This document shows, one piece after another, positions 1 to 17,142 of a DNA stretch of 24,977 bases (position 1 is its first letter; each line of letters opens with the position of its first letter). Location of the stretch: IMG/VR virus record IMGVR_UViG_2778261231_000008; one strand, written 5' to 3'. Source of the stretch: a virus. Lineage: Duplodnaviria > Heunggongvirae > Uroviricota > Caudoviricetes. The notes beneath the pieces were generated by a model, which was given only the letters and a program-made list of their open reading frames with translations, searched no databases and was not told where the DNA came from. The translations under genes were made by a program, and so were the position numbers.

Positions 1-1053
1 TTACGGGGTAATGCCAACCGCTGCCGCCACTTTGTCGCCACTTGGCAATGTTGCCAGAGGATTGAAACGGAGCGCCGTTTCCAGATGATCCGGTGCCAGA
101 TGTGCGTAACGCATAGTCATTTTTATATCGTGGTGTCCGAGAATTTTTTGTAAGGCCAGGATGTTTCCACCCGACATCATGAAGTGCGCCGCAAAAGTAT
201 GGCGCAGAACGTGTGTCAGTTGACCGCGAGGGAGCACGATAGACGTTTTTTCCATCACGGATAAAAATTGAAAATAGCAGTCTGTGAAGAAATTGAACCC
301 ATCAAGCGCCATGATCTCTTCGTAAAGCTCTTTACTGATAGGGATGCTTCTGTTTTTCTTCCCCTTCGTTCTTACAAAGGTAATTCGGTATTTGGTCACC
401 TGTGAGCGGGTAAGATTTACGGCTTCTCTCCAGCGTGCGCCTGTGCTTAAGCATATCTTGACTACCAGAGCCAGAATTGGGTCCTGACGTTTGCAATCAG
501 CCAGTAATTCAACAATCTGCTCATGGGTAAGCCATGCCATCTCTTTTTCTGCGATGGTGAATTTTCGCATGTTCTCCAGTGGGTTCGGATACGACCATTC
601 GCCCAGACGGGATAGTTCGCTAAAAACACTACTTAGATAGCTTTGCTCCAGGTTAATGGTGACCGGGCTTGCTCCTTTCTTCCATTTCTCGCTGAAGTAG
701 ATCTCGCCTGTCAGGCGTTTATCTCGATAGTGGGCAAACATTTTAGAGGTGAGATCGGTTGCAAGAGGATTGCCTAGAGCGTCAACCATCAGCAGCAATT
801 TGTCATAGACATGCTGTCCAGCAGTCAGAGATTTACCATGTAGTTTGAACCATAGCTCAACCACGTCTTTCAGGGTTCGACGATCCACTGATTCGCCCAG
901 CCAGGGCTTTGATTCGGTTTCTTCCATCGTGTGACGCTCAAAAGCCAGAGCTTCGCCTTTGGTGGCGAATTGTTTACGCACACGACGCCCACTTCGTCCG
1001 GCGGGGTAACATTCGCAAAGCCATTTCCCTGTGGTGAGTTTTCGTACTGCCAT
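1..1053 (-). CDS. int: Tyrosine integrase (P2/186-like site-specific recombinase)
   Basis: 402-aa ORF in the track; the likely true start is the internal ATG at 1051..1053 (MAVRKLTTGKW...), preceded by a GGAGGG Shine-Dalgarno, giving 350 aa. The C-terminal region carries R..HxxR...Y tyrosine-recombinase signatures (LRHTFAAH, MRYAHL). Position at the prophage edge next to att. Confidence 0.88.
   Translation of the reverse strand: MAVRKLTTGKWLCECYPAGRSGRRVRKQFATKGEALAFERHTMEETESKPWLGESVDRRTLKDVVELWFKLHGKSLTAGQHVYDKLLLMVDALGNPLATDLTSKMFAHYRDKRLTGEIYFSEKWKKGASPVTINLEQSYLSSVFSELSRLGEWSYPNPLENMRKFTIAEKEMAWLTHEQIVELLADCKRQDPILALVVKICLSTGARWREAVNLTRSQVTKYRITFVRTKGKKNRSIPISKELYEEIMALDGFNFFTDCYFQFLSVMEKTSIVLPRGQLTHVLRHTFAAHFMMSGGNILALQKILGHHDIKMTMRYAHLAPDHLETALRFNPLATLPSGDKVAAAVGITP
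19..41. repeat. attL core: 23-bp direct repeat cgctgccgccactttgtcgccac, repeated at 22123..22145 with one mismatch
   Basis: Direct comparison of the two ends of the phage-like block; identity stops on both sides of the 23-mer. It overlaps the 3' end of the integrase ORF. Confidence 0.7.
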
Positions 1054-1241
1054 AAAAAATGCCCTCCAGTAGAGAGCATTTTTACTGTATGTATAACCAG
1101 TGTCAATGTATGAAATCCTACGACCATACATCTCACTGAAGCCATAATGAAGTTGGCTATTCTTTTTGCTATGTGAGCATGTAACTTTTGCGGTTAACCT
1201 GCGGCTCATTTTTATTTTAGACGCAGATATAAAAGCAAAAG

Positions 1242-1433
1242 TTATCGTGAGTTTTTAGTACAGATTTTTTTGGATTTACTAATAGTTCCATCATTGCAAA
1301 CGAATTTGCCATCTGAGGTACAGTGAGAAACACCTCCCTTTTTCCCTGAGCAGGGATAATTTCTAGCATAGGTAGTTAGTGGGTTTAATAACAAAGAACA
1401 TGACAAAACCACAAAAAATACCTTACCAAGCAT
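1242..1433 (-). CDS. Small Cys-rich protein with N-terminal hydrophobic signal-like segment (63 aa), function unknown
   Basis: ATG at 1431..1433 preceded by GGGAGGAAA; [16 protein letters not shown] hydrophobic N-terminus then a 6-Cys region; AT-rich by eye; sits between int and the repressor. Confidence 0.45.
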
Positions 1434-1448
1434 AGTTTCCTCCCGGTA

Positions 1449-2018
1449 CTATTTAACATACCTGACTGTTAAACTTATAATTTTACCAATTATTTCAATG
1501 TCTTCTATCTTGCATTCGAAGGCTCTGTTTCCACCCTCGACGAAGATTCTTCCACCGGGTAAACGAGTAATGTCACGGATCGTTATTTCGCCATCAATAC
1601 TTATTACCCATTTACCATCACGTATATCATCAAATTCTTTATCACAAATAAATTCAGAATTGTTATCTGTGATGACAAAAGGTTTTTTAAACGTAGAGGG
1701 TAGAAATCCCTTATCAAAAATATAAAAACCGTCTTTCTGCAATGCTCCATCAGACAATAAATATTTTTCTACTTCTATAGTATTTGTATTTGCTGATGCT
1801 TGCTTTGAACCATGCCCTGTTGTTAGCCAATTAAGCGAGGTGCCCGTTTCAAGGGCGCACTGGATTACCCAATCTGCTGGAAAAATATCACGCATATAGC
1901 GCGTTGCCATGGTGCTCTTAGAAACACCTAAATGATCACAGAGAGCCTGACGGGTACCGAACCCATATGCTTCAACTAAACGTTCTATGGCTTTCTTACC
2001 GCCGCTATTGAAATCCAC
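1449..2018 (-). CDS. cI: Phage 186 CI-like immunity repressor (HTH), no LexA-like S24 autocleavage motif seen
   Basis: The track ORF 1449..2105 begins with GTG; a GTG at 2016..2018 with an upstream GGAGG gives about 189 aa, matching 186 CI length. HTH region ...IERLVEAYGFGTRQALCDHLGVSKSTMATRY...CALETGTSLNWLTTG; no G-D/N-S-M peptidase motif. Start codon is uncertain. Confidence 0.65.
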   Translation of the reverse strand: MDFNSGGKKAIERLVEAYGFGTRQALCDHLGVSKSTMATRYMRDIFPADWVIQCALETGTSLNWLTTGHGSKQASANTNTIEVEKYLLSDGALQKDGFYIFDKGFLPSTFKKPFVITDNNSEFICDKEFDDIRDGKWVISIDGEITIRDITRLPGGRIFVEGGNRAFECKIEDIEIIGKIISLTVRYVK

Positions 2019-4531: not shown

Positions 4532-5385
4532 GCACCATCCTGAAATGGGCGGGAAATAAAACCGCCATTATGTCCGAACTGAAAAAACACCTTCCTGCTG
4601 GCCCGCGACTGGTTGAACCTTTCGCGGGTTCCTGTGCTGTGATGATGGAGACCGATTACCCCAGCTATCTGGTTGCGGATATTAATCCTGATTTAATCAA
4701 CCTCTATAAAAAGGTTGCCGCTGATTGTGAATCGTTTATATCTCGCGCCAGAGTTTTATTTGAGATCGCAAACAGGGAGGTGGCTTATTACAACATAAGG
4801 CAGGAGTTTAATTACTCCACTGAAATTACTGATTTCATGAAAGCGGTATATTTCCTGTATCTCAATCGTCATGGTTACCGTGGATTATGTCGCTATAACA
4901 AGAGCGGGCATTTCAACATTCCGTACGGTAATTATAAAAATCCGTATTTCCCTGAAAAAGAAATTCGCGCATTTGCAGAGAAAGCCCAGCGGGCAACGTT
5001 TATCTGCGCAAGCTTTGATGAAACGCTGGCGATGCTGCAGGTGGGGGATGTGGTGTATTGCGATCCGCCGTATGACGGTACGTTTTCCGGCTATCACACT
5101 GATGGTTTCACTGAAGATGACCAGTATCACCTGGCATCCGTTCTTGAACATCGGTCATCAGAAGGACATCCGGTCATTGTTTCTAACAGTGACACATCCC
5201 TGATCCGTTCGCTGTATCGCAATTTTACTCACCACTACATCAAGGCAAAACGCAGCATCGGTGTGGCAGCTGGTGAGAGTAAATCTGCAACAGAAATCAT
5301 CGCTGTTTCCGGGCCGCGCTGCTGGGTGGGATTTGATCCTTCGCGTGGCGTGGATAGTTCTGCCGTGTACGGAGTGCGTGCATGA
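4528..5385 (+). CDS. dam: DNA adenine methyltransferase (Dam-like, GATC N6-adenine)
   Basis: ATG at 4528 ([15 protein letters not shown]...) with AGGAGG upstream; close to E. coli Dam throughout, including the N-terminal AdoMet motif (LVEPFAGS), [16 protein letters not shown] and the catalytic DPPY motif. Confidence 0.9.
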
Positions 5386-7766
5386 GCCATGCTGATATGA
5401 ACAACTGCAGCGGCTTTAACGAGGTCGCCGCAGCATTCTCATGGAACAGCCCGAAAAAGGCCATTAACCCTTATCTGGACCCGGCGGAAGTTGCGCCGGT
5501 TTCTGCGCTTTCAAACCTGATCACTCTGTACGCTGCAGATAACGAGCAGGAACAACTGCGCCGCGAGGCACTGAGTGATCAGGTCTGGGAGCGTTATTTC
5601 TTTAATGAATCCCGTGATCCTGTCCAACGCGAAATGGAGCAGGATAAGCTCATTAGCCGGGCAAAGCTGGCGCATGAGCAGCAGCGTTTTAATCCGGACA
5701 TGGTCATACTGGCGGACGTTAACGCCCAGCCTTCCCATATCAGCAAGCCGCTGATGCAACGTATTGAATACTTCAGCAGCCTGGGCAGGCCAAAGGCTTA
5801 TTCCCGCTATTTGCGTGAGACGATTAAGCCATGTCTGGAACGACTGGAGCATGTACGCGAGAGTCAGCTATCCACTTCTTTTCGCTTTATGGCAATCCAT
5901 GAAGGTCTGGACGGCCTGCTGATATTGCCTGAAATGAGTCAGGATCAGGTGAAACGCTTGTCTACTCTTGTCGCTGCGCATATGAGCATGTGTCTTGATG
6001 CCGCTTGTGGTGATTTGTACGCCACCGATGATGTTAAGCCAGAAGAAATCCGCAAGACATGGGAAAAGGTGGCAGCAGAAACCCTGCGACTGGATGTCAT
6101 ACCGCCTGCGTTTGAGCAACTCCGCCGGAAAAGAAACCGCCGTAAACCCGTGCCCTATGAACTCATTCCGGGTTCGCTGGCGCGTATGTTGTGCGCCGAC
6201 TGGTGGTACCGGAAATTATGGAAGATGCGTTGCGAATGGCGGGAAGAGCAGTTGCGCGCTGTCTGCCTGGTCAGCAAAAAAGCATCTCCTTATGTCAGCT
6301 ATGAAGCCGTGATGCATAAACGTGAGCAGCGCCGTAAGTCGCTGGAGTTTTTCCGTTCTCATGAACTGGTGAACGAAGACGGCGACACGCTGGACATGGA
6401 GGATGTGGTAAACGCCAGCAGCAGCAACCCTGCGCATCGCCGCAATGAGATGATGGCCTGTGTTAAAGGTCTGGAGCTTATCGCGGAAATGCGCGGTGAC
6501 TGCGCCGTTTTCTACACCATCACCTGTCCGTCACGTTTCCATTCCACGCTAAATAACGGCAGGCCCAACCCGACCTGGACAAATGCGACGGTAAGACAAA
6601 GCAGTGATTATCTGGTCGGCATGTTTGCTGCATTTCGTAAGGCGATGCACAAAGCCGGATTGCGCTGGTATGGCGTGCGGGTGGCTGAGCCGCATCATGA
6701 CGGTACAGTTCACTGGCACCTGTTGTGTTTTATGCGCAAAAAAGACCGCCGCGCCATCACTGCATTACTGCGTAAGTTTGCCATCCGTGAAGACCGCGAG
6801 GAGCTGGGCAATAACACGGGGCCGCGCTTTAAGTCTGAGTTGATTAACCCGCGCAAAGGAACGCCGACAAGCTACATCGCGAAATATATCAGTAAGAACA
6901 TTGACGGGCGTGGTCTGGCTGGCGAGATCAGCAAGGAAACGGGTAAATCCCTGCGTGATAACGCTGAATACGTGAATGCCTGGGCGTCTCTGCATCGTGT
7001 TCAGCAATTCCGCTTCTTTGGTATTCCGGGGCGTCAGGCTTATCGTGAACTGCGATTGCTGGCTGGTCAGGCGGCAAGGCAGCAGGGTGACAAAAAAGCA
7101 GGTGCGCCGGTACTGGATAACCCACGCCTTGATGCCATCCTAGCTGCTGCTGATGCTGGTTGTTTTGCCACCTACATCATGAAGCAGGGGGGCGTACTGG
7201 TTCCCCGCAAATATCACCTCATCAGAACCGCTTATGAAATCAACGAAGAGCCGACCGCCTATGGTGATCACGGCATTCGTATTTATGGCATCTGGTCACC
7301 CATTGCAGAGGGCAAGATCTGTACTCATGCAGTGAAGTGGAAAATGGTTCGTAAGGCCGTTGACGTTAAGGAGGCGGCAGCCGACCAAAGCGCTTGCGCC
7401 CCTTGGACTCGTGGCAATAACTGTCCCCCTGTTGAAAAAATGTACCAGACAGGGGGCGAATTATCGGGCAGGCAAGAACCTGCAGCCCTGCCGGACTTCG
7501 AGAATATGAGCAAAAAGGAGCTGCGAGAACTGACAGCGAGGCTGCGACTGGTCAAACCGAAGCGCCGGAAAGGGTACAAACAGGAAATTACGGATCACCA
7601 GCGCCTGCAGCTCGATGCGGAACTGAGGTCCAGAGGCTTTGACGCGAGTGAAACGGAAGTTGATCTGCTTCTACGTGGCGGCAGCTTGCCATCTGGAGCC
7701 GGATTGCGGCTGTTCTACCGGAACCAGCGGCTGCAGGAGGATGACAAATGGCGGCAGTGGTACTGA
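5382..7766 (+). CDS. A: Replication initiation endonuclease A (P2 gpA family, rolling-circle)
   Basis: 794 aa; conserved block [19 protein letters not shown] and ...[12 protein letters not shown]... with the active-site tyrosine region typical of P2 A; start overlaps the dam stop. Confidence 0.85.
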
Positions 7767-8401: not shown

Positions 8402-10423
8402 ATGAGCAGTTTTTATTATATCCAGCCGGAATTAAAAAACGATTTTAATGCAAGTTTTTTGAATTCTTTGGAAGAGTATTCCAATCGAAAACAGTTGCAG
8501 GTATATGCTATAAAAAATCCTCTCGGGGAAAATAAGTATAACTATGATAGAGATGACGTTCTGGTGTTATTAAGCCCCGGATGCAAAATGGCATTTATTA
8601 ATTTCGGAGATAATAGTGATGAGTTTGAAAATTTCCAAGAGGATTTTGTCGAGGATTTAGGCTCACTATCTGATAAATACAATTATAAAGATACAATTGG
8701 AAGACCACGTGAATGGCGTCGTAACCTGGTCTCGGATTTTATATTCAATGATATCGATGACGATTTAGATGCGTTTTTTGATGAGATTAAACTCGCGGAT
8801 GGATCGCTTGCAAAAAAGAGCGAGTTAATCATCTCGTTGTTGACTGGTAGTATAAACAATATTGATAAAGTAAAAGGGAATGTTCCTGACAATATCCTTG
8901 ATAAAGTTAAGCAAAAAATAATTTTATTTGATGGAGATCAAACTAGATTTGTATATCAGAAGTTTGATAAGAAAAAAGTAATTATTCAAGGGCTTTCAGG
9001 CACGGGCAAGACAGAACTTTTGCTTCACAAGTTGAAAGAAATATATTTGGATAAGAATAATCATGATAGTAAAATAATGTTTACATGTCATAATAAAATC
9101 TTGGCAGATAGTATGAGAAAGAGGATTCCAGAGTTCTTCAACTTTATGAAAGTTGAACAACAAATTAGCTGGAATGATAGATTGTGGTGTGTAAACGCTT
9201 GGGGATCACAATACGATAATAATTCTGGGGCTTATCGTTATATCTGTGAAGCCTATGGGATAAATTTTCATCGCTTCAGCTATGTCATGACCTTTGATAG
9301 AGTTTGTCGCTTAGCATTGGAAGAAATAAGAAAAATCCCTGAAGGTCAATTCAAACATTGCTTTGATTTTATGTTGGTCGATGAAAGTCAGGATTTTCCA
9401 TCAAGTTTTATCGAGCTTTGTGAGTTAGTAACTCGCGATACACTGTATGTAGCAGGTGATATATTTCAAAGTATATTTGATACCAATATTTCTAATGAAA
9501 TCCAACCTGATTTTTTATTGAGTAAGTGTTACAGAACTGACCCGAGAACTTTAATGTTTGCCCATGGAATTGGCATGGGGTTATTTGAGAGTGAGCCTCT
9601 CACATGGCTCGAAAATGACGAGTGGGAAGCATGTGGCTATATTGTGGACCATTTTGAACGTGCCAAGTTGAGATTGAAACGTGAGCCATTACGTAGATTT
9701 GAAGATGTGACTGATGCCAAAATCCATAGTGTTGAATTAGTTAATTCGACATTTGATACTGAAGAAAAAAACATCTTGGATTTATTGCATAAAATCAAAG
9801 CAGAGAATCCAACTGTTCTAGCTGACGATATCGGTATTATTTTTATCGATAAGGCTAAAAGTATCTTCACTATTGCCGATAAGCTTGAAGTCAGTGTTCC
9901 AAGAATTTTTGGTTGGAAAGTGAATAAGGCTTATGAAACCAAAGAAAAAGTAAAGGATACTTTATTTCTTAGTAATAAAAATCATGTAAAGGGGTTGGAG
10001 TTCCCATTTGTTATTTGTGTTACGCGAGATATTAGTAGAAGCCATTCAGATCGAAATTCTTTATATATGATGCTGACTCGATCCTTTATTCGTTCCTATT
10101 TGCTTTTAGGTGATCGTGATGAAAGTCTTCAGGCTGAAATTCAGCGGGGGTTAGAAAACATTAATGCTCATGGCTATATGGAAATTACCATTCCTCCTCA
10201 AGATGTTATCGAAAGAATAAGGACTACAATTAAGTTTGACGAGAAAAGTATTTCCCATTATGACTTGGTGTCTAAGGTGTTCGATGATCTCAATATTGAG
10301 GCTATATTCAGGCCGTCACTATATGAAATTGTGAAGAATATTCTTCCAGACTCTTTTGATGTTGAAAGGATATCAAAAGTCATTTTGTTTAATTACGAAG
10401 AAATGCTTCAGGAGACAAAATGA
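8402..10423 (+). CDS. SF1 (UvrD/Rep-like) helicase-family ATPase with an unassigned ~190-aa N-terminal domain; candidate anti-phage defence protein
   Basis: 673 aa. Walker A GLSGTGKT (nt 8990..9013), motif II LVDESQDF (9374..9397), motif III GDIFQSIF, motif IV CYRTD, C-terminal motif-VI-like MMLTRSFIRSYLL. Visibly AT-rich codon usage unlike the flanking phage genes. Sits between gene A and the portal gene. Confidence 0.75.
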   Translation: MSSFYYIQPELKNDFNASFLNSLEEYSNRKQLQVYAIKNPLGENKYNYDRDDVLVLLSPGCKMAFINFGDNSDEFENFQEDFVEDLGSLSDKYNYKDTIGRPREWRRNLVSDFIFNDIDDDLDAFFDEIKLADGSLAKKSELIISLLTGSINNIDKVKGNVPDNILDKVKQKIILFDGDQTRFVYQKFDKKKVIIQGLSGTGKTELLLHKLKEIYLDKNNHDSKIMFTCHNKILADSMRKRIPEFFNFMKVEQQISWNDRLWCVNAWGSQYDNNSGAYRYICEAYGINFHRFSYVMTFDRVCRLALEEIRKIPEGQFKHCFDFMLVDESQDFPSSFIELCELVTRDTLYVAGDIFQSIFDTNISNEIQPDFLLSKCYRTDPRTLMFAHGIGMGLFESEPLTWLENDEWEACGYIVDHFERAKLRLKREPLRRFEDVTDAKIHSVELVNSTFDTEEKNILDLLHKIKAENPTVLADDIGIIFIDKAKSIFTIADKLEVSVPRIFGWKVNKAYETKEKVKDTLFLSNKNHVKGLEFPFVICVTRDISRSHSDRNSLYMMLTRSFIRSYLLLGDRDESLQAEIQRGLENINAHGYMEITIPPQDVIERIRTTIKFDEKSISHYDLVSKVFDDLNIEAIFRPSLYEIVKNILPDSFDVERISKVILFNYEEMLQETK

Positions 10424-11055
10424 CAAAAGAATATTATTTTAGCCTTGATCAATCTCAATGCGATTGGGCTTTTAAGGCAATTAGAAATAAAAAAGATGTT
10501 ATTGAAATATTAATGAGGGTTTTAAAGACAATTTCAGTATACACTGAACCATCAGCCGATAAAGTTGCTGGTAAGATGAAGTTACATATATCAAAGATGA
10601 GTCGTGTTTTCTTTTTTAGTGAAGGGAAATACTATTCGTTAGCATTCCCCTTTACGCTGGAAGTTAGTGGAGATAATCTTTGCTTCTGTAGCGGTGAAAT
10701 TGAAGTTATTGACAGTTACATTACTTCTAAAGTGCTTGCGATTATTAATGATTCTTCCTATCTCAACCCATCTCTTTGGGCATTTTTTGAGCCACTAGTA
10801 GAGCTTGAGGATCATCAAACTATTCCAGGATTTTGGCAATTTTTCAAAATGCTGCTTACGCATGAGGATGGATACATCAGATATGATGTTGACCCAGATC
10901 CGAGACGATTAGATCCAAGGAGTCACCCTTTACATCATTTTGATGTTTTCTATTCCAATCAGCCAACGTTCAAAATTGGTCTAAGAGAACATTATACTAA
11001 TGATGATATGATTGACTTATTAAATAGAGAAACTGATTGTCATTTTTTTGAATGA
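10420..11055 (+). CDS. Hypothetical 211-aa protein translationally coupled to the helicase; candidate partner/effector
   Basis: Start ATG overlaps the helicase stop (ATGA at 10420..10423); AT-rich; no motif I recognise. Confidence 0.65.
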   Translation: MTKEYYFSLDQSQCDWAFKAIRNKKDVIEILMRVLKTISVYTEPSADKVAGKMKLHISKMSRVFFFSEGKYYSLAFPFTLEVSGDNLCFCSGEIEVIDSYITSKVLAIINDSSYLNPSLWAFFEPLVELEDHQTIPGFWQFFKMLLTHEDGYIRYDVDPDPRRLDPRSHPLHHFDVFYSNQPTFKIGLREHYTNDDMIDLLNRETDCHFFE

Positions 11056-11097: not shown

Positions 11098-11802
11098 TTA
11101 TAATAAGTAGTCTGTAAATTGGATTATATCTTGGTCCAGATAGGTGTTTAATTCTTCAATTCTTTTTTGCAGTGGTAATAACTCATTTCGAACAAAAACA
11201 TTCGCCGCCTTTTCCACATCCCCAAACCCCCCAACATTACTTGGCATAATCCCCATCATCTGCGGTGGTACACGGTGTGCCGCCATCATGTCATCCCGGC
11301 TCACGTTCTTAATGTTCAAAAACTCATCCTTTGCCGCCACTTCTGACAGTGGAATGATCTGAATGCCATCCTTTTTGCCGTTTGGCGAGTACATAAACAG
11401 GTTGCGGAAATTGCCCGGACCTTTGGCGCTTTTCATGGCCTGGCGGATGTTGTTCACGTCCTCCTGGTTCTGCGCGGCGTCAGTCATATACATAATAAAA
11501 CCCGCGTGACTGCCATTGATGTAATACTTCCGGCGGAACAGCGTGGCTGACTCGTTCAGCAGGGCGGAAGGGATAGCGGACAGATATTCCGGCAGGCCGT
11601 AAATCTCCTGGTTCAAATCTGGCTCCATCAGGTGAAAGATGCTGCCTTTGGTAAACTCATACGGCTGCGTGGTCATGCCGTATTGCACAAACCAGTAGGT
11701 GTCTAAATCGATCCCGCGGCGGGTGTATTTCGCCAGCGATGGCTCCAGTGACAGAATCCCGCCCAGTCGGTTCGTCCGTTTCTCCAGGTAACCTGCAGAA
11801 AG
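11098..11802 (-). pseudogene. Q: Portal protein (P2 gpQ family), C-terminal ~234 aa only
   Basis: Portal-like sequence (...FRRKYYINGSHAGFIMYMTDAAQ...HRVPPQMMGIMPSNVGGFG...) ends at the native stop (11098). The N-terminal ~56 aa of the track ORF is GC-rich low-complexity translation of the antisense of gene S, so the 5' part is deleted. Confidence 0.7.
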
Positions 11803-12230
11803 TTGACGCCTGGCTGGCGGCGCTGCTGGCAAATCTGGAACCAGCGGCGCGAAAGCGAATGATGCTGGAGCTGGCGCAACAGCTGCGCCGGAATCAGCAG
11901 AACAACATCCGCCTGCAGCGCAATCCTGATGGGACTGGCTACGAGCCGCGCCGGGTAACGGCCCGAACAAAGAAGGGTCGCATTAAGCGGCAGATGTTCG
12001 CCAAACTCCGCACCACGAAATACCTTAAAACCGCCGCCAGTGCCGACTCTGCCAGCGTAGAGTTTGCCGGGCAGGTACAGCGCATCGCACGGGTGCATCA
12101 TTACGGCTTACGGGATCGTGTAAGCCGTAAGGGGCCGGAGGTGCGGTATACAGAGCGGCGGTTGCTTGGGATAACTGATAATGATCATGAGATGATTAAA
12201 TCAAGCATACTAGGTTTTTTGATTAAGTAG
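11739..12230 (+). pseudogene. S: Tail completion / virion morphogenesis protein S homologue, nearly full length but without its native start
   Basis: From about nt 11799 the ORF reads like P2 S / Mu G family (RNQQNNIRLQRNPDGTGYEPRR...FAGQVQRIARVHHYGLRD). The first ~18 codons are antisense of portal sequence, so the deletion endpoint is at the S start. Confidence 0.55.
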
Positions 12231-13389
12231 TCTGATCTTTTTCTTTAAAATAACCTTCAATTTTTGCAATTAAAAGACTGATGCTTTCTATAAAGTTTTT
12301 TGTTTCGCTCTCACTTGGTTCATGATGAGTGTGTGCGATTTTATCCCGTAAGTTTTTTCGATTCTCATTGGCTGTTTGCCATTCTAGCTGAGCAATCTCT
12401 GGCACAGATATATTGAACTGTTGTCTAAATAGTTGTTTGCACCTTACCTCAAATTTCCAGTTTTTGTTTAGAATGGCCTTAGTTTCGCATTCATCATGGC
12501 CTTTCTTATTAAGTTCATTGATTAGCAATCTAAGGATGTAGCTTTCAAGTCCAGCTGAAGCTTCGATTACGGCAGATCTTAACGCCCCTTTATGAACAAG
12601 GTTGTTCGCTCTAATTATTAATAATTCAGGGTGTTCATTGAATTCATCTGTCATTAATCGACGTTTAAAATCTTCAATCTGAATTTCATTATGATTGTAC
12701 CAACTATTTCGCATTAGTGGTGTTATTATTCCAACCATAGGTATTGAGCTTACCTTAACTCCATCACAGTAATGTTCTTGCAATACGCCGTTAGTGAAAC
12801 CTAACCCTGCTTGATAAAGAGATATTTCATCAGCGAATTGATCATTGAAGGCTACTCTATACTGCTTTATAAAGTGGTTGATTATACCTATGCATTCTTC
12901 AGATTGTTTGGGCGGAAATATCTCTCTAGCAGTTTTTTTGATACTTTCGAGTTTTGCTACCTTCTCAATATCTAAATTGTCCATCGTAGCTATGTGCTCT
13001 TTGGCCTCATCTTCAGATGGGTAATTGTCACCGCTTCGGATCTGACTTCTAATAGTGTTGATAAATTCCTCTTCTGAAAGTTCAGATAGAACCGCGCATT
13101 CGGCAACACTGGCAAGGGAAATTACAGTGCGGCATTTCATTATTCCTCTGTCGTTTAATATGTGTGGTGTTAATTGTTCCTTGGTTCCGAGCAACAAGGT
13201 TTGTGGGAAAAGATAAGCATCTTTGAATAATGTATAATAATCATTGTGTACAGTTAAACAAAGTTCAGTGTGTTCATAAATAAAATTATATATCCCATCG
13301 GGAATGTTCAGGACATACGGTAATTCAACTAAATAACGAGCCGCGAAAATCATGTGGTCCATCTCCATATGAGAATTGCATTGTGCCAT
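12223..13389 (-). CDS. Hypothetical 388-aa cargo protein with a C-terminal Rx4H (HEPN-like) motif; candidate abortive-infection/defence gene
   Basis: AT-rich reverse-strand ORF between S and V (the orf30 position of P2). Motif RDKIAH at nt 12331..12348. Start uncertain: the ATG at 13351..13353 has the better Shine-Dalgarno (GGAGA). Confidence 0.6.
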   Translation of the reverse strand: MAQCNSHMEMDHMIFAARYLVELPYVLNIPDGIYNFIYEHTELCLTVHNDYYTLFKDAYLFPQTLLLGTKEQLTPHILNDRGIMKCRTVISLASVAECAVLSELSEEEFINTIRSQIRSGDNYPSEDEAKEHIATMDNLDIEKVAKLESIKKTAREIFPPKQSEECIGIINHFIKQYRVAFNDQFADEISLYQAGLGFTNGVLQEHYCDGVKVSSIPMVGIITPLMRNSWYNHNEIQIEDFKRRLMTDEFNEHPELLIIRANNLVHKGALRSAVIEASAGLESYILRLLINELNKKGHDECETKAILNKNWKFEVRCKQLFRQQFNISVPEIAQLEWQTANENRKNLRDKIAHTHHEPSESETKNFIESISLLIAKIEGYFKEKDQTT

Positions 13390-15274: not shown

Positions 15275-15872
15275 CCTGCTGCCGCCTGGTTCGTCAGCAC
15301 TTGAGCGCCGACTGGCGGAGAGCTGCAGCGGCATTTCCGATCTGCAGGTGCCCCTGCGTGACCTCTGGAGCCCGGCAACGTGTCCGGTTGCCTTTTTGCC
15401 GTATCTGGCATGGGCATTTTCCGTGGACCGCTGGGACGAAAGCTGGGCGGAAAGCGTGAAACGCCGGGTGGTGCAGGATGCCTTTTACATTCATCAGCAC
15501 AAGGGCACAACCAGCGCCGTGCGGCGGGTGGTGGAGCCGTTCGGTTTCCTGATCCGCATTCTGGAGTGGTGGCAGACCAACGAGGCCCCCGGCACGTTCC
15601 GGCTGGACATTGGCGTGCAGGACCAGGGGATTACGGAGGAAACCTATCTGGAGCTGGAGCGCCTGATCGGTGACGCCAAACCCTGCAGCCGCCATCTGAT
15701 TGGCATGTCAATCAACCTGCAGACGAGCGGCCCGTTTTGGGTAGGGGCTGGCACCTACATCGGGGAGGAAATCACCGTCTACCCGTATATCAACGAAACC
15801 ATTACTTCCGGCGGCCCGGCCTTTGCGGGCGGGGCGGTCCATGTTATTGACACAGTGAGAGTGAACCCATGA
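15267..15872 (+). CDS. I: Baseplate/tail protein I
   Basis: Start at the ATG at 15267 (MNSLLPPGSS...), internal to the track ORF; LPxLAWAFSVDRWDE...GTFRLDIGV matches P2 gpI. Confidence 0.85.
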   Translation: MNSLLPPGSSALERRLAESCSGISDLQVPLRDLWSPATCPVAFLPYLAWAFSVDRWDESWAESVKRRVVQDAFYIHQHKGTTSAVRRVVEPFGFLIRILEWWQTNEAPGTFRLDIGVQDQGITEETYLELERLIGDAKPCSRHLIGMSINLQTSGPFWVGAGTYIGEEITVYPYINETITSGGPAFAGGAVHVIDTVRVNP

Positions 15873-16717
15873 GCGCAAAATTTTACACCCTGCTGACGGA
15901 CATTGGCGCGGCAAAACTGGCAAGTGCTGCCGCGCTCGGTGTCCCGCTGAAAATTACCAAAATGGCAGTGGGCGACGGGGGCGGTGTGCTGCCGACACCC
16001 AGCGCGCAGCAGACTGGCCTGATTGCAGAAAAGCGCCGCGCCGACCTGAATATGCTCTACATCGACCCGCAGAACAGCAGCCAGATTATTGCGGAGCAGG
16101 TTATTCCTGAAACGGAAGGCGGTTGGTGGATTCGTGAAGTCGGGCTGTTTGATGAGACAGGCGCGCTGATTGCCGTCGGCAACTGCCCTGAAAGCTACAA
16201 GCCGCAGCTGGCGGAGGGCAGCGGGCGCACACAGACCGTGCGCATGGTGCTGATCACCAGTAGCACCGATAACATCACCCTGAAAATTGACCCGGCGGTG
16301 GTGCTGGCAACTCGCAAGTATGTAGATGACAAGGTGCTTGAGCTAAAGGTGTACGTGGATGACCAGATGGCGAAACATATCGCCGCGGTTGATCCCCATA
16401 CGCAGTATGCGCCAAAGACTAGCCCGACCTTTACCGGAACACCAAAAGCACCCACTGCGGCGTCAGGCAATAACACCACCCAGCTTGCCACCACGGCATT
16501 TGTGCAGGCCGCTATTGCGGCGCTGGTCAATTCCTCCCCTGGCGCACTGGACACGCTGAACGAGCTGGCTGCAGCGCTGGGCAATGATCCGAACTTCGCC
16601 ACCACCATGACCAATGCGCTTGCGGGGAAAATGGGTAAGGCTGCCAATCGGCCTGTAGTAACCCATAACGGTGCGGGCTACCGCGCCAGAACTCACTTTT
16701 TCAGGACAAGAACATGA
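15869..16717 (+). pseudogene. H: Tail fibre protein H, N-terminal ~254 aa only
   Basis: N-terminal and conserved middle block (...SSPGALDTLNELAAALGNDPNFATTMTNALAGK) match P2 gpH; after about nt 16630 the frame runs ~28 unrelated codons to a stop. P2 H is about 670 aa. Confidence 0.8.
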
Positions 16718-17016
16718 GCGACAAAACAAACGAAAAAACTGTGGTACTGGATACGCCAATCCTGCGCGGCAAAAGCGAAATCAAAGAGGTGGTGCTGCGT
16801 AAACCCCAGTCTGGTGCGCTGCGTGGCACCCGCCTGCAGGCCATTATGGATATGGACGTGGGCGCGATGATGACCATCATTCCGCGAATCTCCAGCCCGA
16901 CGCTGACCCCGCAGGAAATGGCGGAGCTGGACCCGGCAGACCTCACCGCAATGTCCGTGGAGGTGGTCACTTTTTTGTTGAAGAAGTCGGTGCTTGCCGA
17001 TTTGCCGACAGCCTGA
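16714..17016 (+). CDS. E: Tail assembly chaperone E
   Basis: 100-aa ORF upstream of the tape-measure gene, carrying the slippery heptamer T_TTT_TTG. Confidence 0.8.
   Translation: MSDKTNEKTVVLDTPILRGKSEIKEVVLRKPQSGALRGTRLQAIMDMDVGAMMTIIPRISSPTLTPQEMAELDPADLTAMSVEVVTFLLKKSVLADLPTA
16971..16977 (+). other. Programmed -1 frameshift site T_TTT_TTG producing the E' (E+E') product that terminates at 17150
   Basis: My manual -1 frame translation from 16977 runs open to a TGA at 17148..17150, overlapping the T start; this mirrors the E/E' arrangement in P2. Confidence 0.7.
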
Positions 17017-17142
17017 CGGTTGATGACCTGGTGGCAGATATTGCCACCATTTTTCACTGGCCGCCGTCCGTCACTGACGTTATGCCGCTGACTGAGGTGC
17101 TGGAGTGGCGGCATAAAGCAATCCTGAGAAGCGGGGCCAGCG

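What the first reader, a model, noticed from the sequence alone, without database searches (positions are those of the whole stretch)
1242..1433. Small AT-rich Cys-rich exported-protein gene inserted between int and the repressor
It has a strong Shine-Dalgarno, a hydrophobic signal-like N-terminus and six cysteines in about 40 mature residues. The int-repressor junction is a frequent moron site, and small secreted or membrane peptides there can act in superinfection exclusion or as toxins.
Basis: seen in the sequence. Interest (0 to 1): 0.35.

Follow-up and report, generated by a model that had tools for sequence, protein, structure and literature searches.

The report
Prophage-borne YdcA-family small periplasmic protein
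The small gene is real: it encodes a tiny, disulfide-locked protein exported to the periplasm, from the already catalogued but functionally uncharacterised YdcA family, and a P2/186-like prophage carries it directly behind its repressor gene as accessory cargo.

Summary
The ORF at 1242-1433 (minus strand, 63 aa) is a genuine, strongly conserved gene. RefSeq already annotates the same locus as 'YdcA family protein'. It passes the curated NCBIfam cut-off (NF007463: 115.8 bits against 93).

- the strong Shine-Dalgarno (GGAGG, 5 nt before the ATG);
- the signal-like N-terminus;
- the AT-richness;
- the position between int and cI, which overlap in phage 186.

The cysteine count was wrong. There are five in all and four in the 40-residue mature part, not six.

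The mature core is almost invariant across Proteobacteria and under strong purifying selection, while the signal peptide drifts freely.

The gene sits 15 nt after the cI stop, with no promoter-like or terminator-like site between them. A conserved terminator-like hairpin lies just before int, so the gene probably rides on the repressor transcript.

The same repressor-then-YdcA arrangement recurs in Klebsiella, Yersinia and Haemophilus P2-like prophages. It is unannotated in phages HP2 and S2.

The only solved relative is Legionella Dis2, a disulfide-pinned outer-membrane-proximal component of the Dot/Icm secretion machine. Elsewhere the domain is the N-terminal module of secreted nucleases of three unrelated folds.

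What it does for the lysogen is unknown. No evidence supports a toxin or an exclusion role.

The parts
1242..1433 (-). YdcA-family gene, 63 codons plus TAA stop. Protein: [63 protein letters not shown]
   Evidence: ORF list and translation. NCBIfam NF007463 scores 115.8 bits against a cut-off of 93. phrog_6000, E 1.9e-34. RefSeq annotates the same locus as 'YdcA family protein' WP_000900883.1. Purifying selection.
1365..1433 (-). Codons 1-23: predicted Sec (type I) signal peptide, with cleavage predicted after T-Y-A23
   Evidence: Basic n-region (K4) and a hydrophobic core. Across 95 family members -1 is Ala in 92 and -3 is A/S/T/V in 94. The sequence is otherwise poorly conserved: mean top-residue fraction 0.40, against 0.81 for the mature part. 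Signal-part dN is 0.79-0.95 against L009/L020. SignalP was not available.
1245..1364 (-). Codons 24-63: predicted mature peptide of 40 aa. Computed for residues 25-63: about 4.1 kDa, pI about 9.5. It has four invariant Cys (C28, C38, C46, C58).
   Evidence: Invariant columns are P27, C28, S29, K32, G33, G34, C38, F44, C46, G49, S52 and C58 in 95 sequences. AF2 pLDDT is 91-93 over residues 31-50. Properties.
1439..1443 (-). Shine-Dalgarno GGAGG, 5 nt before the ATG. It lies within the 15-nt gap after the cI stop codon (TAG, 1449-1451).
   Evidence: Read directly from the sequence.
1449..2018 (-). 186-type CI repressor gene, 189 aa with the RefSeq-style start (the longest ORF runs to 2105). It is the upstream gene of the same transcription unit.
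   Evidence: PF07022 (E 3.3e-31) plus PF16452 (E 4.8e-29). RefSeq annotation. No promoter-like or terminator-like site on the minus strand between cI and the small ORF.
1054..1241 (-). 188-nt structured, AT-rich spacer between the small ORF and int
   Evidence: The RNA fold of 1040-1260(-) gives -64.4 kcal/mol, z = -6.06 against 200 shuffles. GC is 36.7%.
1055..1083 (-). Terminator-like hairpin AAAAAUGCUCUCU-ACU-GGAGGGCAUUUUU, immediately before the int AUG. Its 3' arm contains the int Shine-Dalgarno GGAGGG (1062-1067).
   Evidence: Seen in the fold. The siblings L009 and L020 keep a hairpin plus U-run at the same place with different arm sequences: GTCCTCA/TGAGGAC and GCCCTCA/TGAGGGC (read from the alignment). 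The consensus terminator scan did not flag it.
1078..1106 (-). Promoter-like site TTGACA-17-AAAAAT upstream of int, overlapping the 5' arm of the hairpin
   Evidence: Consensus scan, 10 of 12 matches. The count of such sites in the region is not above the shuffle expectation. It is therefore weak evidence.
1..1053 (-). P2/186-type tyrosine integrase, 350 aa
   Evidence: PF24624 plus PF00589. phrog_1. 56% identical to 186 Int and 49% to HP2 Int.
1142..1264 (.). A 123-bp segment (the last 8 codons of the ORF plus the start of the spacer). It stands in place of a 1350-bp segment carrying a KAP NTPase gene in the sibling prophage L025.
   Evidence: blastn breakpoints: window 2110..1265 matches L025 1824..2669, and window 1141..900 matches L025 4020..4261. 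The KAP NTPase matches PADLOC PDC-S20, E 1.3e-171.

Best explanation
The ORF encodes a YdcA-family mini-protein carried as accessory cargo in the lysogeny operon of a degraded 186-like prophage.

Proposed chain of events:
1. The gene is transcribed together with cI from the lysogenic promoter(s). Its ATG lies 15 nt after the cI stop and has its own strong SD. A conserved terminator-like hairpin just before int ends or attenuates the transcript and masks the int ribosome-binding site. The peptide would then be made whenever repressor is made. (Inferred.)
2. A Sec signal peptide is removed after Ala23, releasing a 40-residue, Lys-rich peptide into the periplasm. (Inferred from family-wide signal-peptide features.)
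3. The four invariant cysteines form two disulfides that lock a small beta-hairpin domain. (Inferred from the AF2 model and from homology to the disulfide-pinned lobes of Dis2.)
4. The folded domain acts as a docking module at the periplasmic face of the outer membrane. Each lobe of Legionella Dis2 sits there against the lipoproteins DotC, DotD and DotK. In other bacteria the same domain, placed right after the signal peptide and followed by a flexible linker, carries nuclease domains of three unrelated folds. As a free domain it would occupy its envelope target.
5. The pay-off for the lysogen is most probably an envelope-level lysogenic-conversion effect, that is stress tolerance or interference with something entering through the periplasm. 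It is probably not killing. (Speculative; which effect applies is not resolved.)
For: Gene reality and family:
- NCBIfam NF007463 scores above its cut-off. phrog_6000 matches. The 98%-identical P0001 carries the PF27300 'YdcA' tag. RefSeq annotates the locus.
- The family has 465 clusters at 50% identity.
- In the mature part dN is 0.012 and dS 0.42 against L023. Against L009 there are 21 synonymous and 3 non-synonymous differences, while the signal part has dN 0.79.

Export:
- -1 is Ala in 92 of 95 sequences and -3 is small in 94 of 95. The h-region is hydrophobic and its sequence unconserved.

Operon position:
- The gap after cI is 15 nt, with GGAGG.
- No minus-strand promoter-like or terminator-like site lies between cI and the ORF.
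- In HP2 the homologue's ATG overlaps the cI stop.
- The order cI, YdcA, (KAP NTPase), int holds in E. coli and Klebsiella. The order cI, YdcA, int holds in Yersinia, and HP2-type cI and int flank the gene in Haemophilus/Pasteurellaceae. This persists although cI itself falls to 65% and 32% identity.
- In Thorsellia an unrelated S24-type repressor lies directly upstream.
- The hairpin before int is conserved in position with changed arm sequences.

Fold and relatives:
- The AF2 core has pLDDT of about 90.
- phmmer of the ORF against the PDB finds Dis2 at E 3e-5 with both lobes matched. The family profile gives E 7.8e-5.
- The top Foldseek hit is the same chain: probability 0.96-0.98, 38-39% identity.
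- Dis2 is described as two similar lobes with five disulfides, near the outer membrane, contacting DotK, DotC and DotD (PMC8486379, PMC12716638).

Fusions:
- The domain precedes SNase, Endonuclease_NS and PLD-like nuclease domains.

Not phage-specific:
- Chromosomal copies exist, as do plasmid copies.
- A delta-ydcA mutant of E. coli W is reported to be sensitive to 300 mM 3-hydroxypropionate, and ydcA is reported as acid-induced (PMC7642389).
Against: - Nothing here is experimental. Expression, cleavage, disulfides and localisation are all inferred.
- SignalP could not be run.
- The terminator-like hairpin was not flagged by the consensus scan.
- A promoter-like site upstream of int shows that the transcription map is uncertain.
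- Deleting Dis2 gives only subtle phenotypes, and its own function is unknown (PMC12716638). The homology therefore transfers location and fold rather than function.
- The nuclease fusions fit a nucleic-acid-binding role as well as an anchoring role.
- E. coli K-12 has a chromosomal ydcA (57% identical over the aligned region). If the window's host has one too, a simple 'supplies YdcA function' benefit is not obviously needed.
- Gene neighbourhoods outside prophages are heterogeneous and give no partner.
Confidence: 0.5

Rival explanations
1. Superinfection-exclusion or entry-blocking factor. The periplasmic peptide, made with the repressor, blocks genome entry of incoming phages or other DNA-delivery machines at the envelope.
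For: - It is co-located, and probably co-expressed, with the immunity repressor in several P2-like lineages.
- In siblings it is adjacent to a PADLOC candidate defence gene, PDC-S20.
- It is carried by many unrelated temperate phages at accessory positions: between Q and the lysis genes on the opposite strand in lambdoid prophages, and within the structural/tail gene region of Moraxella and Acinetobacter phages.
- Its solved relative sits on a type IV secretion machine.
Against: - It matches no PADLOC model.
- Many family members are ordinary chromosomal genes with no phage context.
- The mature sequence is far more conserved than the phage repressors beside it. That is not the pattern expected for a factor in an arms race with diverse phages.
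- No exclusion phenotype is reported for any member in the searchable literature.
Confidence: 0.15
2. Host-fitness (envelope or acid-stress) conversion gene. The prophage supplies an extra, constitutively expressed YdcA paralogue that stabilises the envelope under acid or organic-acid stress. The lysogen benefits, with no direct effect on other phages.
For: - A delta-ydcA mutant of E. coli W is reported to be severely inhibited by 300 mM 3-hydroxypropionate. ydcA is reported as induced at pH 5 under YdcI (PMC7642389).
- The chromosomal gene sits beside rydC, whose product activates cfa; the paper links this to acid resistance through membrane lipids (PMC11340327 abstract; gene order).
- The family occurs on chromosomes, plasmids (including a 3.9-kb mobilisable plasmid) and phages alike.
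- The gene is intact here in a prophage that has lost its capsid and lysis genes.
Against: - This rests on a single growth phenotype from one study, with no mechanism.
- That phenotype was suppressed by a yieP deletion.
- It does not explain the nuclease fusions or the Dis2 relationship.
Confidence: 0.2
3. Periplasmic nucleic-acid-binding module. The Lys-rich domain binds DNA or RNA in the periplasm. As a free domain it would sequester or shield incoming DNA.
For: - The domain is fused N-terminally to three unrelated nuclease folds: SNase, Endonuclease_NS and PLD-like (the P0092 tag).
- SNase genes are neighbours in 2 of 69 loci.
- The mature peptide has pI about 9.5, with nearly invariant K31, K32, K43 and K55 and mostly-Lys positions 53 and 56.
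- Members occur in Haemophilus, Moraxella, Acinetobacter and Neisseria, which I know to be naturally transformable.
Against: - In the only solved relative the domain contacts proteins near the outer membrane, not nucleic acid (PMC12716638).
- Other fusion partners are not nucleases (5 of 10 had no nuclease domain).
- The position directly after the signal peptide, followed by a low-complexity linker, is what I would expect of an anchoring module.
Confidence: 0.1
4. Secreted toxin or bacteriocin-like cationic peptide.
For: - It is small, cationic and disulfide-rich, and it has a signal peptide.
- A YdcA-family gene is listed among loci associated with antimicrobial-positive Pseudomonas protegens strains (PMC13541209).
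Against: - No immunity gene or dedicated exporter lies next to it in any context examined.
- By itself, Sec export ends in the periplasm of the producer.
- Members include a chromosomal gene (K-12 ydcA) in a neighbourhood shared by Escherichia and Shigella genomes.
- The Pseudomonas association is only correlative.
Confidence: 0.03

Closest known systems
E. coli K-12 YdcA (b1419; 57 aa; described as a signal-sequence-bearing, predicted periplasmic protein of unknown function)
   Same: - Same family and architecture: a signal peptide plus a mature domain of about 35-40 aa with the same four Cys and the PCSG-KGG-SHC...[14 protein letters not shown] motif.
- 57% identity over 53 residues.
- NCBIfam PRK10040-type models hit both sub-types.
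   Different: - The K-12 gene is chromosomal, between rydC and hokB. The window's gene is prophage cargo behind cI.
- The signal peptides are unrelated in sequence.
- The window protein matches the NF007463 sub-model above its cut-off. It falls below the cut-off of NF007462 (68.5 bits against 118).
Unannotated ORF directly after cI in Haemophilus phages HP2 and S2 (L001 2920-3102, 60 aa)
   Same: - Same family, and the same position in the lysogeny operon: cI, then the YdcA-like ORF, then further genes, then int.
- Same strand as cI and tightly coupled to it: the ATG overlaps the cI stop.
   Different: - HP2 cI is only 32% identical to the window's cI.
- HP2 has an extra 254-aa ORF, orf1(S), before int.
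- The ORF is not annotated in the GenBank or RefSeq records.
Legionella pneumophila Dis2 (Lpg0823), outer-membrane-cap component of the Dot/Icm type IVB secretion system (PDB 7MUC/7MUD chain AN)
   Same: - It is the only solved relative: phmmer E 3e-5, profile E 7.8e-5, top Foldseek hit with probability 0.96-0.98 and 38-39% identity.
- It has a signal peptide and disulfide-stabilised small lobes with the motif C-x-K-x-GG-x-x-x-C...VCN(D/N)G-x-x-S.
- It is periplasmic and lies near the outer membrane (PMC8486379).
   Different: - Dis2 has two lobes and five disulfides; the window protein has one lobe and four Cys.
- Dis2 is a stoichiometric part of a T4SS (13 copies). No T4SS genes are present here.
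- Dis2 has been described as Legionella-specific and without structural relatives (PMC8486379, PMC12716638). The homology found here qualifies that description.
Classical prophage morons encoding envelope proteins (lambda bor and lom, Cor/Llp-type exclusion lipoproteins). This comparison rests on my own knowledge.
   Same: A small exported protein encoded by accessory DNA in a temperate phage, expected to be expressed in the lysogen and to act at the envelope.
   Different: - No sequence relationship.
- It is not a lipoprotein or a beta-barrel.
- It has no evident promoter or terminator of its own.
- No known phenotype.

Membership tests
YdcA family (NCBIfam NF007463 / PRK10040.1-2; Pfam PF27300) | Score at or above the curated whole-protein cut-off of the NCBIfam equivalog model | tested here: met
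   NF007463: 115.8 bits against a cut-off of 93, E 5.3e-34, covering profile positions 1-58 of 58.
YdcA family (NCBIfam NF007463 / PRK10040.1-2; Pfam PF27300) | Match to Pfam PF27300 | tested here: inconclusive
   The Pfam scan returned only a weak, unrelated hit; the local copy may lack this model. The precomputed tag PF27300 ('YdcA', named) is carried by P0001, which is 98% identical, and by nearly all homologues.
YdcA family (NCBIfam NF007463 / PRK10040.1-2; Pfam PF27300) | Conserved mature core: four Cys and the P-C-S-G-x-K-G-G ... F-x-C-x-D-G-x-x-S-x-S-K ... C motif | tested here: met
   Every column that is invariant across the 95 sequences carries the same residue in the window protein: P27, C28, S29, K32, G33, G34, C38, F44, C46, G49, S52 and C58.
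YdcA family (NCBIfam NF007463 / PRK10040.1-2; Pfam PF27300) | N-terminal cleavable Sec signal peptide (periplasmic location) | tested here: met
   The window has K4, a hydrophobic core and T-Y-A at -3 to -1. The family follows the -3/-1 rule in 92-94 of 95 sequences. These are heuristic tests only. No SignalP run and no experiment.
Dis2 (Lpg0823)-type T4BSS outer-membrane-cap subunit | Sequence and fold similarity to a Dis2 lobe | tested here: met
   [not shown]
Dis2 (Lpg0823)-type T4BSS outer-membrane-cap subunit | Two tandem lobes pinned by five disulfides | tested here: not met
   The window protein has a single lobe and four Cys in the mature part. The Dis2 architecture is taken from PMC8486379.
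Dis2 (Lpg0823)-type T4BSS outer-membrane-cap subunit | Encoded in a genome or locus with Dot/Icm-type T4SS partners (DotC, DotD, DotK) | tested here: not met
   The ORFs and families identified in the window are prophage genes plus ybjL and ybjM. No T4SS component was seen.
Bacterial lipoprotein (lipobox / signal peptidase II substrate) | [LVI][ASTVI][GAS]C lipobox at the end of a signal peptide of adequate length, with a conserved Cys+1 | tested here: not met
   - V-L-S-C12 has Leu at -2.
- K4 falls within the six residues that must be uncharged in the PROSITE-type rule (rule recalled from memory).
- Only 11 residues precede the Cys.
- The column is not conserved: Ile is commonest, at a fraction of 0.20.
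Moron in the strict sense (independently transcribed insert between conserved phage genes) | Present in some relatives and absent at the same junction in others | tested here: met
   It is absent from phage 186, where cI and int overlap. Klebsiella phage 4LV2017 has different content at the junction. The gene is present in 648 of 5426 E. coli genomes.
Moron in the strict sense (independently transcribed insert between conserved phage genes) | Own promoter and terminator flanking the insert | tested here: not met
   No minus-strand promoter-like site lies between cI and the ORF. No terminator-like site lies directly after the ORF. The first terminator-like hairpin lies 159 nt downstream, at the int start.
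Known anti-phage defence or exclusion proteins (PADLOC-DB 2.0) | Match to any model of a known or candidate defence protein | tested here: not met
   The ORF matched 0 families at E <= 0.01. The neighbouring KAP NTPase of sibling prophages matched PDC-S20 at E 1.3e-171.

The most novel reading that the evidence does not exclude
The YdcA domain is a general periplasmic 'entry-gate' module. It binds either incoming nucleic acid or the outer-membrane-proximal docking site used by DNA-translocating machines.

This reading would tie together four observations:
- the domain has been recruited by nucleases of three unrelated folds;
- it has been recruited by the Dot/Icm T4SS, as Dis2;
- temperate phages of Haemophilus, Moraxella and Acinetobacter, and chromosomes of Neisseria (all naturally transformable genera, from my own knowledge), as well as enteric prophages, carry it;
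- P2-like phages express it together with their repressor.

On this reading the phages use it to blunt transformation, conjugation or superinfection that would otherwise displace the prophage. That would make it a new, very small class of MGE-encoded DNA-entry inhibitor, and it would give a first function to YdcA and to Dis2.
Probability: 0.1. Interest if true: 0.7.

Novelty: already known. Interest (0 to 1): 0.3.

Why it matters
As a gene this is ordinary. It is annotated, it belongs to a named family, and about 12% of complete E. coli genomes carry it. Its value is as a lead on a family with no known function, and three points came out of this check.

1. A 35-residue core is kept almost unchanged from enterics to Burkholderiales, which argues for a very conserved envelope target.

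2. The gene is repeatedly glued to the repressor gene of P2-like phages. It has been overlooked in the reference records of HP2 and S2.

3. It is homologous to the lobes of Legionella Dis2, which the papers read here call Legionella-specific and without structural relatives. It also serves as the N-terminal module of several nuclease types.

If the envelope partner were identified, it would assign a function to E. coli YdcA, to Dis2 and to a widespread prophage cargo gene at once.

Tried and rejected
- **Megablast of the immunity region against the phage collection.** No match. Whole-window matches to Salmonella RE2010 and Klebsiella 4LV2017 exclude this region or hold other cargo there.
- **The afdb50 fold library.** Unavailable.
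- **Weak PDB sequence hits.** Potato type-II proteinase inhibitors (E 0.24-1.8), lectins and LDL-receptor modules were judged to be Cys/Gly/Lys compositional matches. Foldseek did not support them.
- **Weak family hits.** The NCBIfam lpg1681 hit (E 0.11) and the Pfam GULLO2-like hit (E 0.075) are not significant.
- **Lipoprotein reading.** Rejected.
- **Gene-neighbourhood census.** Among the 69 species-level loci that are not P2-like, no recurrent partner appeared.
- **The UniRef name 'Conjugal transfer protein'.** Plasmid copies are not in recognisable transfer operons. They occur in Acinetobacter and Rhizobium plasmids and in a 3.9-kb mobilisable plasmid.
- **'ydcA' of the Neisseria gonorrhoeae genetic island.** This looks like a coincidence of names. 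Homology was not checked.
- **The IMG/VR scan.** It returned only near-identical E. coli prophage copies among the 80 loci kept, so it added no diversity.
- **The hairpin directly after the ORF stop (1183-1244).** It has no U-run, so I did not interpret it as a terminator.
Full report
**Observation.** Window 1242-1433 holds, on the minus strand, an ATG-to-TAA ORF of 63 codons. GGAGG lies at 1439-1443, 5 nt upstream of the ATG. The ATG is 15 nt downstream of the TAG stop of the preceding gene.

The product is [63 protein letters not shown]. It has five cysteines (positions 12, 28, 38, 46, 58), and four of them lie in the part that follows the hydrophobic N-terminus.

The ORF is AT-rich (GC 35.4%, GC3 29.7%; window 49.9%). 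So are the 188-nt spacer (36.7%) and the neighbouring repressor gene (38.5%). The low-GC tract spans roughly 1100-1800.

**Surroundings.** Downstream on the same strand lies a P2/186-type integrase (1-1053; PF24624 plus PF00589). Upstream lies a 186-type CI repressor (1449-2018/2105; PF07022 plus PF16452). On the opposite strand follow a Cox/Apl-like gene (2164-2367), CII/CP76 (2423-2941), Fil, a Dam methylase and gpA. This is the lysogeny-lysis switch of a 186-like member of the Peduoviridae.

In phage 186 itself cI and int overlap and nothing lies between them. Klebsiella phage 4LV2017 carries an unrelated 349-aa gene at this junction.

**Is it a gene?** Yes.
- The ORF passes the curated cut-off of NCBIfam NF007463 (PRK10040.1-2; 115.8 bits against 93). 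It also matches phrog_6000 at E 1.9e-34.
- RefSeq annotates the same locus in E. coli p10B as 'YdcA family protein' WP_000900883.1.
- 648 of 5426 complete E. coli genomes carry it. 628 of those have at least 80% of the ORF, and it is annotated as a CDS in every listed row. 493 IMG/VR viral contigs encode a relative.
- Three allele groups allow a codon test. In codons 24-58 the window differs from L023 by 7 synonymous and 1 non-synonymous change (dN 0.012, dS 0.42). It differs from L009 by 21 synonymous and 3 non-synonymous changes. In codons 1-23 the comparison with L009 gives dN 0.79.

**Family anatomy.**
- Two searches of the 5.8-billion-protein collection found 64 and then at least 1598 clusters at 90% identity. 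Nearly all of those listed are tagged PF27300 'YdcA'.
- An exhaustive HMM search found 465 clusters at 50% identity.
- In a 95-sequence alignment P27, C28, S29, K32, G33, G34, C38, F44, C46, G49, S52 and C58 are invariant. The mature core has a mean top-residue fraction of 0.81, against 0.40 for the N-terminal 23 residues.
- The N-terminal segment behaves as a type I signal peptide. It has basic residues near the start and a hydrophobic core (median maximal 9-residue hydropathy 2.9). Ala is at -1 in 92 of 95 sequences, and A/S/T/V is at -3 in 94 of 95.
- C12 of the window protein is not conserved, and the V-L-S-C context fails the lipobox rules. A lipoprotein reading is rejected.
- The predicted mature product is a 40-residue peptide. 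Computed for residues 25-63, it is about 4.1 kDa with pI about 9.5.
- E. coli K-12 YdcA is 57% identical over the aligned 53 residues. A 2024 paper still describes it as a 57-aa predicted periplasmic protein of unknown function (PMC11340327).

**Genomic contexts of relatives.**
1. *186-like prophages of E. coli and Klebsiella.* The order is cI, then YdcA, then int, or cI, then YdcA, then a KAP NTPase, then int. The KAP NTPase matches the PADLOC candidate defence family PDC-S20 at E 1.3e-171. Against the KAP-bearing sibling L025, homology stops 23 nt before the window ORF's stop and resumes 88 nt before int. A 1350-bp cassette is therefore present in one and absent from the other, while the YdcA gene stays.
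2. *Haemophilus phages HP2 and S2.* A 60-aa homologue starts on the last base of the cI stop and precedes orf1(S) and int. It is not annotated in the records.
3. *One genome per species.* In 11 of 80 loci, P2-type cI and/or int lie beside the gene: Escherichia, Buttiauxella, three Yersinia species, Atlantibacter, Citrobacter, Pasteurellaceae and H. parainfluenzae. In Thorsellia the upstream neighbour is an unrelated HTH_3 plus Peptidase_S24 repressor.
4. *Other mobile elements.* These include lambdoid prophages, where the gene lies between Q and the lysis genes on the opposite strand. They also include Moraxella and Acinetobacter siphophages, where it lies in the structural/tail gene region, and plasmids, among them a 3.9-kb MOBQ plasmid.
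5. *Plain chromosomal contexts.* K-12 ydcA lies between rydC and hokB, and P0052 next to thrA- and cysS-type genes. The remaining 69 loci show no recurrent partner.

While cI drops to 65% (L009) and 32% (HP2) identity, the adjacent YdcA core stays at 32 of 35 (L009) and 26 of 34 (HP2) identical residues.

**Transcription architecture (inferred).**
- No promoter-like or terminator-like site lies on the minus strand between cI and the ORF. No terminator-like site follows the ORF directly.
- The 221-nt RNA from the ORF end to the int start folds far better than shuffles do (z = -6.06).
- Its last element is the hairpin AAAAAUGCUCUCU-ACU-GGAGGGCAUUUUU (1055-1083), one nucleotide before the int AUG. 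Its 3' arm contains the int Shine-Dalgarno.
- The siblings L009 and L020 have a hairpin plus U-run at the same place with different arm sequences: GTCCTCA/TGAGGAC and GCCCTCA/TGAGGGC.
- I therefore read the small gene as the distal gene of the repressor transcript, with int attenuated. A promoter-like site (1078-1106) overlaps the 5' arm, but such sites are not enriched over shuffles in this region.

**Fold and solved relatives.**
- AlphaFold2 with the 95-sequence alignment gives mean pLDDT 82, and 91-93 over residues 31-50. The model has a short helix (residues 30-32) and a beta-hairpin (35-38 and 44-46).
- Sequence searches of the PDB found one significant relative, chain AN of 7MUC/7MUD: E 3e-5 with the single protein, both lobes aligned, and E 7.8e-5 with the profile.
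- Foldseek ranked the same chain first, with probability 0.96-0.98 and 38-39% identity.
- The window protein is a single-lobe relative and not a Dis2 orthologue.

**Domain fusions.**
- In longer family members the YdcA domain always follows the signal peptide and is followed by a Ser/Pro/Gly-rich linker.
- Of ten long members scanned, two carry SNase, two Endonuclease_NS and one a PLD-like (PLDc_2) domain.
- P0092 is tagged PF01223, and P0125 resembles it in sequence.
- Tandem arrays of two or three YdcA domains also occur.
- An N-terminal module shared by three unrelated nuclease folds suggests a generic targeting or substrate-binding role.

**Most likely mechanism.** The peptide is made with the repressor and exported by Sec. 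It is cleaved after A23 and oxidised to a two-disulfide mini-domain. It then docks on a conserved envelope component near the inner face of the outer membrane. The benefit to the lysogen is unresolved.

The candidates are:
- envelope or acid-stress tolerance, supported only by the 3-HP sensitivity of the E. coli W delta-ydcA mutant and by reported acid induction (PMC7642389);
- interference with entry of foreign DNA or phages;
- nucleic-acid binding.

A toxin role is unlikely. There is no immunity gene or exporter, and the family includes ordinary chromosomal copies.

**Novelty.** The gene and its family are already catalogued and the function is unknown.

The searchable literature did not show three things:
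- the recurrent placement behind P2-type repressor genes, including the missed ORF in HP2 and S2;
- the homology of Dis2 lobes to this widespread family;
- the nuclease fusions.

Searches for YdcA with 'periplasmic', YdcI, Legionella and prophage, and for 'YdcA family', returned nothing on these points.

Overall this is an ordinary, correctly spotted accessory gene of modest interest.

Noticed in passing
window 11098-12230 and 15869-17480: The prophage is degraded.
- The portal ORF (11098-11970, minus strand) lacks about the first 107 profile positions. It overlaps a gpS-like gene (11739-12230, plus strand), so terminase, capsid, lysis and gpR genes appear to be missing.
- The tail-fibre gene is only 282 aa. 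No ORF of 110 aa or more that could encode sheath or tube lies before the tape-measure gene (17143-19884).
- No complete E. coli genome in the collection contains this portal/S junction over at least 80% of its length.
   Followed up: partly
window 22200-22278 (minus strand): A RybB sRNA gene (Rfam RF00110, 105 bits) lies between the last prophage gene (gpD-like, ending at 21460) and ybjL. Between 14 and 24 nt of its 3' end are repeated beyond int in related lysogens (L002 4511-4524, L107 6508-6531). The attachment core seems to overlap the rybB terminator, and the prophage seems to regenerate the sRNA 3' end.
   Followed up: partly
L009 6198-7529, L020 5198-6529, L025 2697-4028: Sibling prophages carry a 443-aa KAP-family NTPase between the YdcA-like gene and int. 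It matches the PADLOC candidate defence family PDC-S20 at E 1.3e-171. The window lacks this cassette and has 123 bp (1142-1264) in its place.
   Followed up: yes
window 8402-11055: The cargo between the replication gene gpA (5382-7766) and the portal remnant is a 673-aa UvrD-like helicase (PADLOC 'Helicase' PDLC03002, E 4.7e-28) and an overlapping 211-aa protein of unknown function (phrog_13184). This may be a two-gene defence-type cargo at what I recall to be a known P2 hotspot.
   Followed up: partly
window 12223-13389 (minus strand): A 388-aa ORF lies between the gpS-like and gpV-like genes. It matches phrog_28299 (E 3.4e-192, function unknown) and has no Pfam hit. Other E. coli prophages have an S, hypothetical, V arrangement at about 75% identity.
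   Followed up: partly
[not shown]
   Followed up: yes
window 1055-1083 (minus strand): A hairpin plus U-run lies immediately before the int start codon and buries the int Shine-Dalgarno. Siblings keep a hairpin at this position with changed arm sequences. It probably attenuates int expression from the lysogenic transcript.
   Followed up: partly
P0176, P0277, P0235, P0293, P0256, P0092, P0125 (family members elsewhere): The YdcA domain occurs as the N-terminal module of secreted SNase, Endonuclease_NS and PLD-like nucleases. It also occurs as tandem arrays of two or three copies (P0162, P0165).
   Followed up: partly
L186 (Acinetobacter pittii plasmid pApiMCR53a, 728-904): A 3.9-kb MOBQ mobilisable plasmid with only five annotated genes carries a YdcA-family gene.
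   Followed up: no
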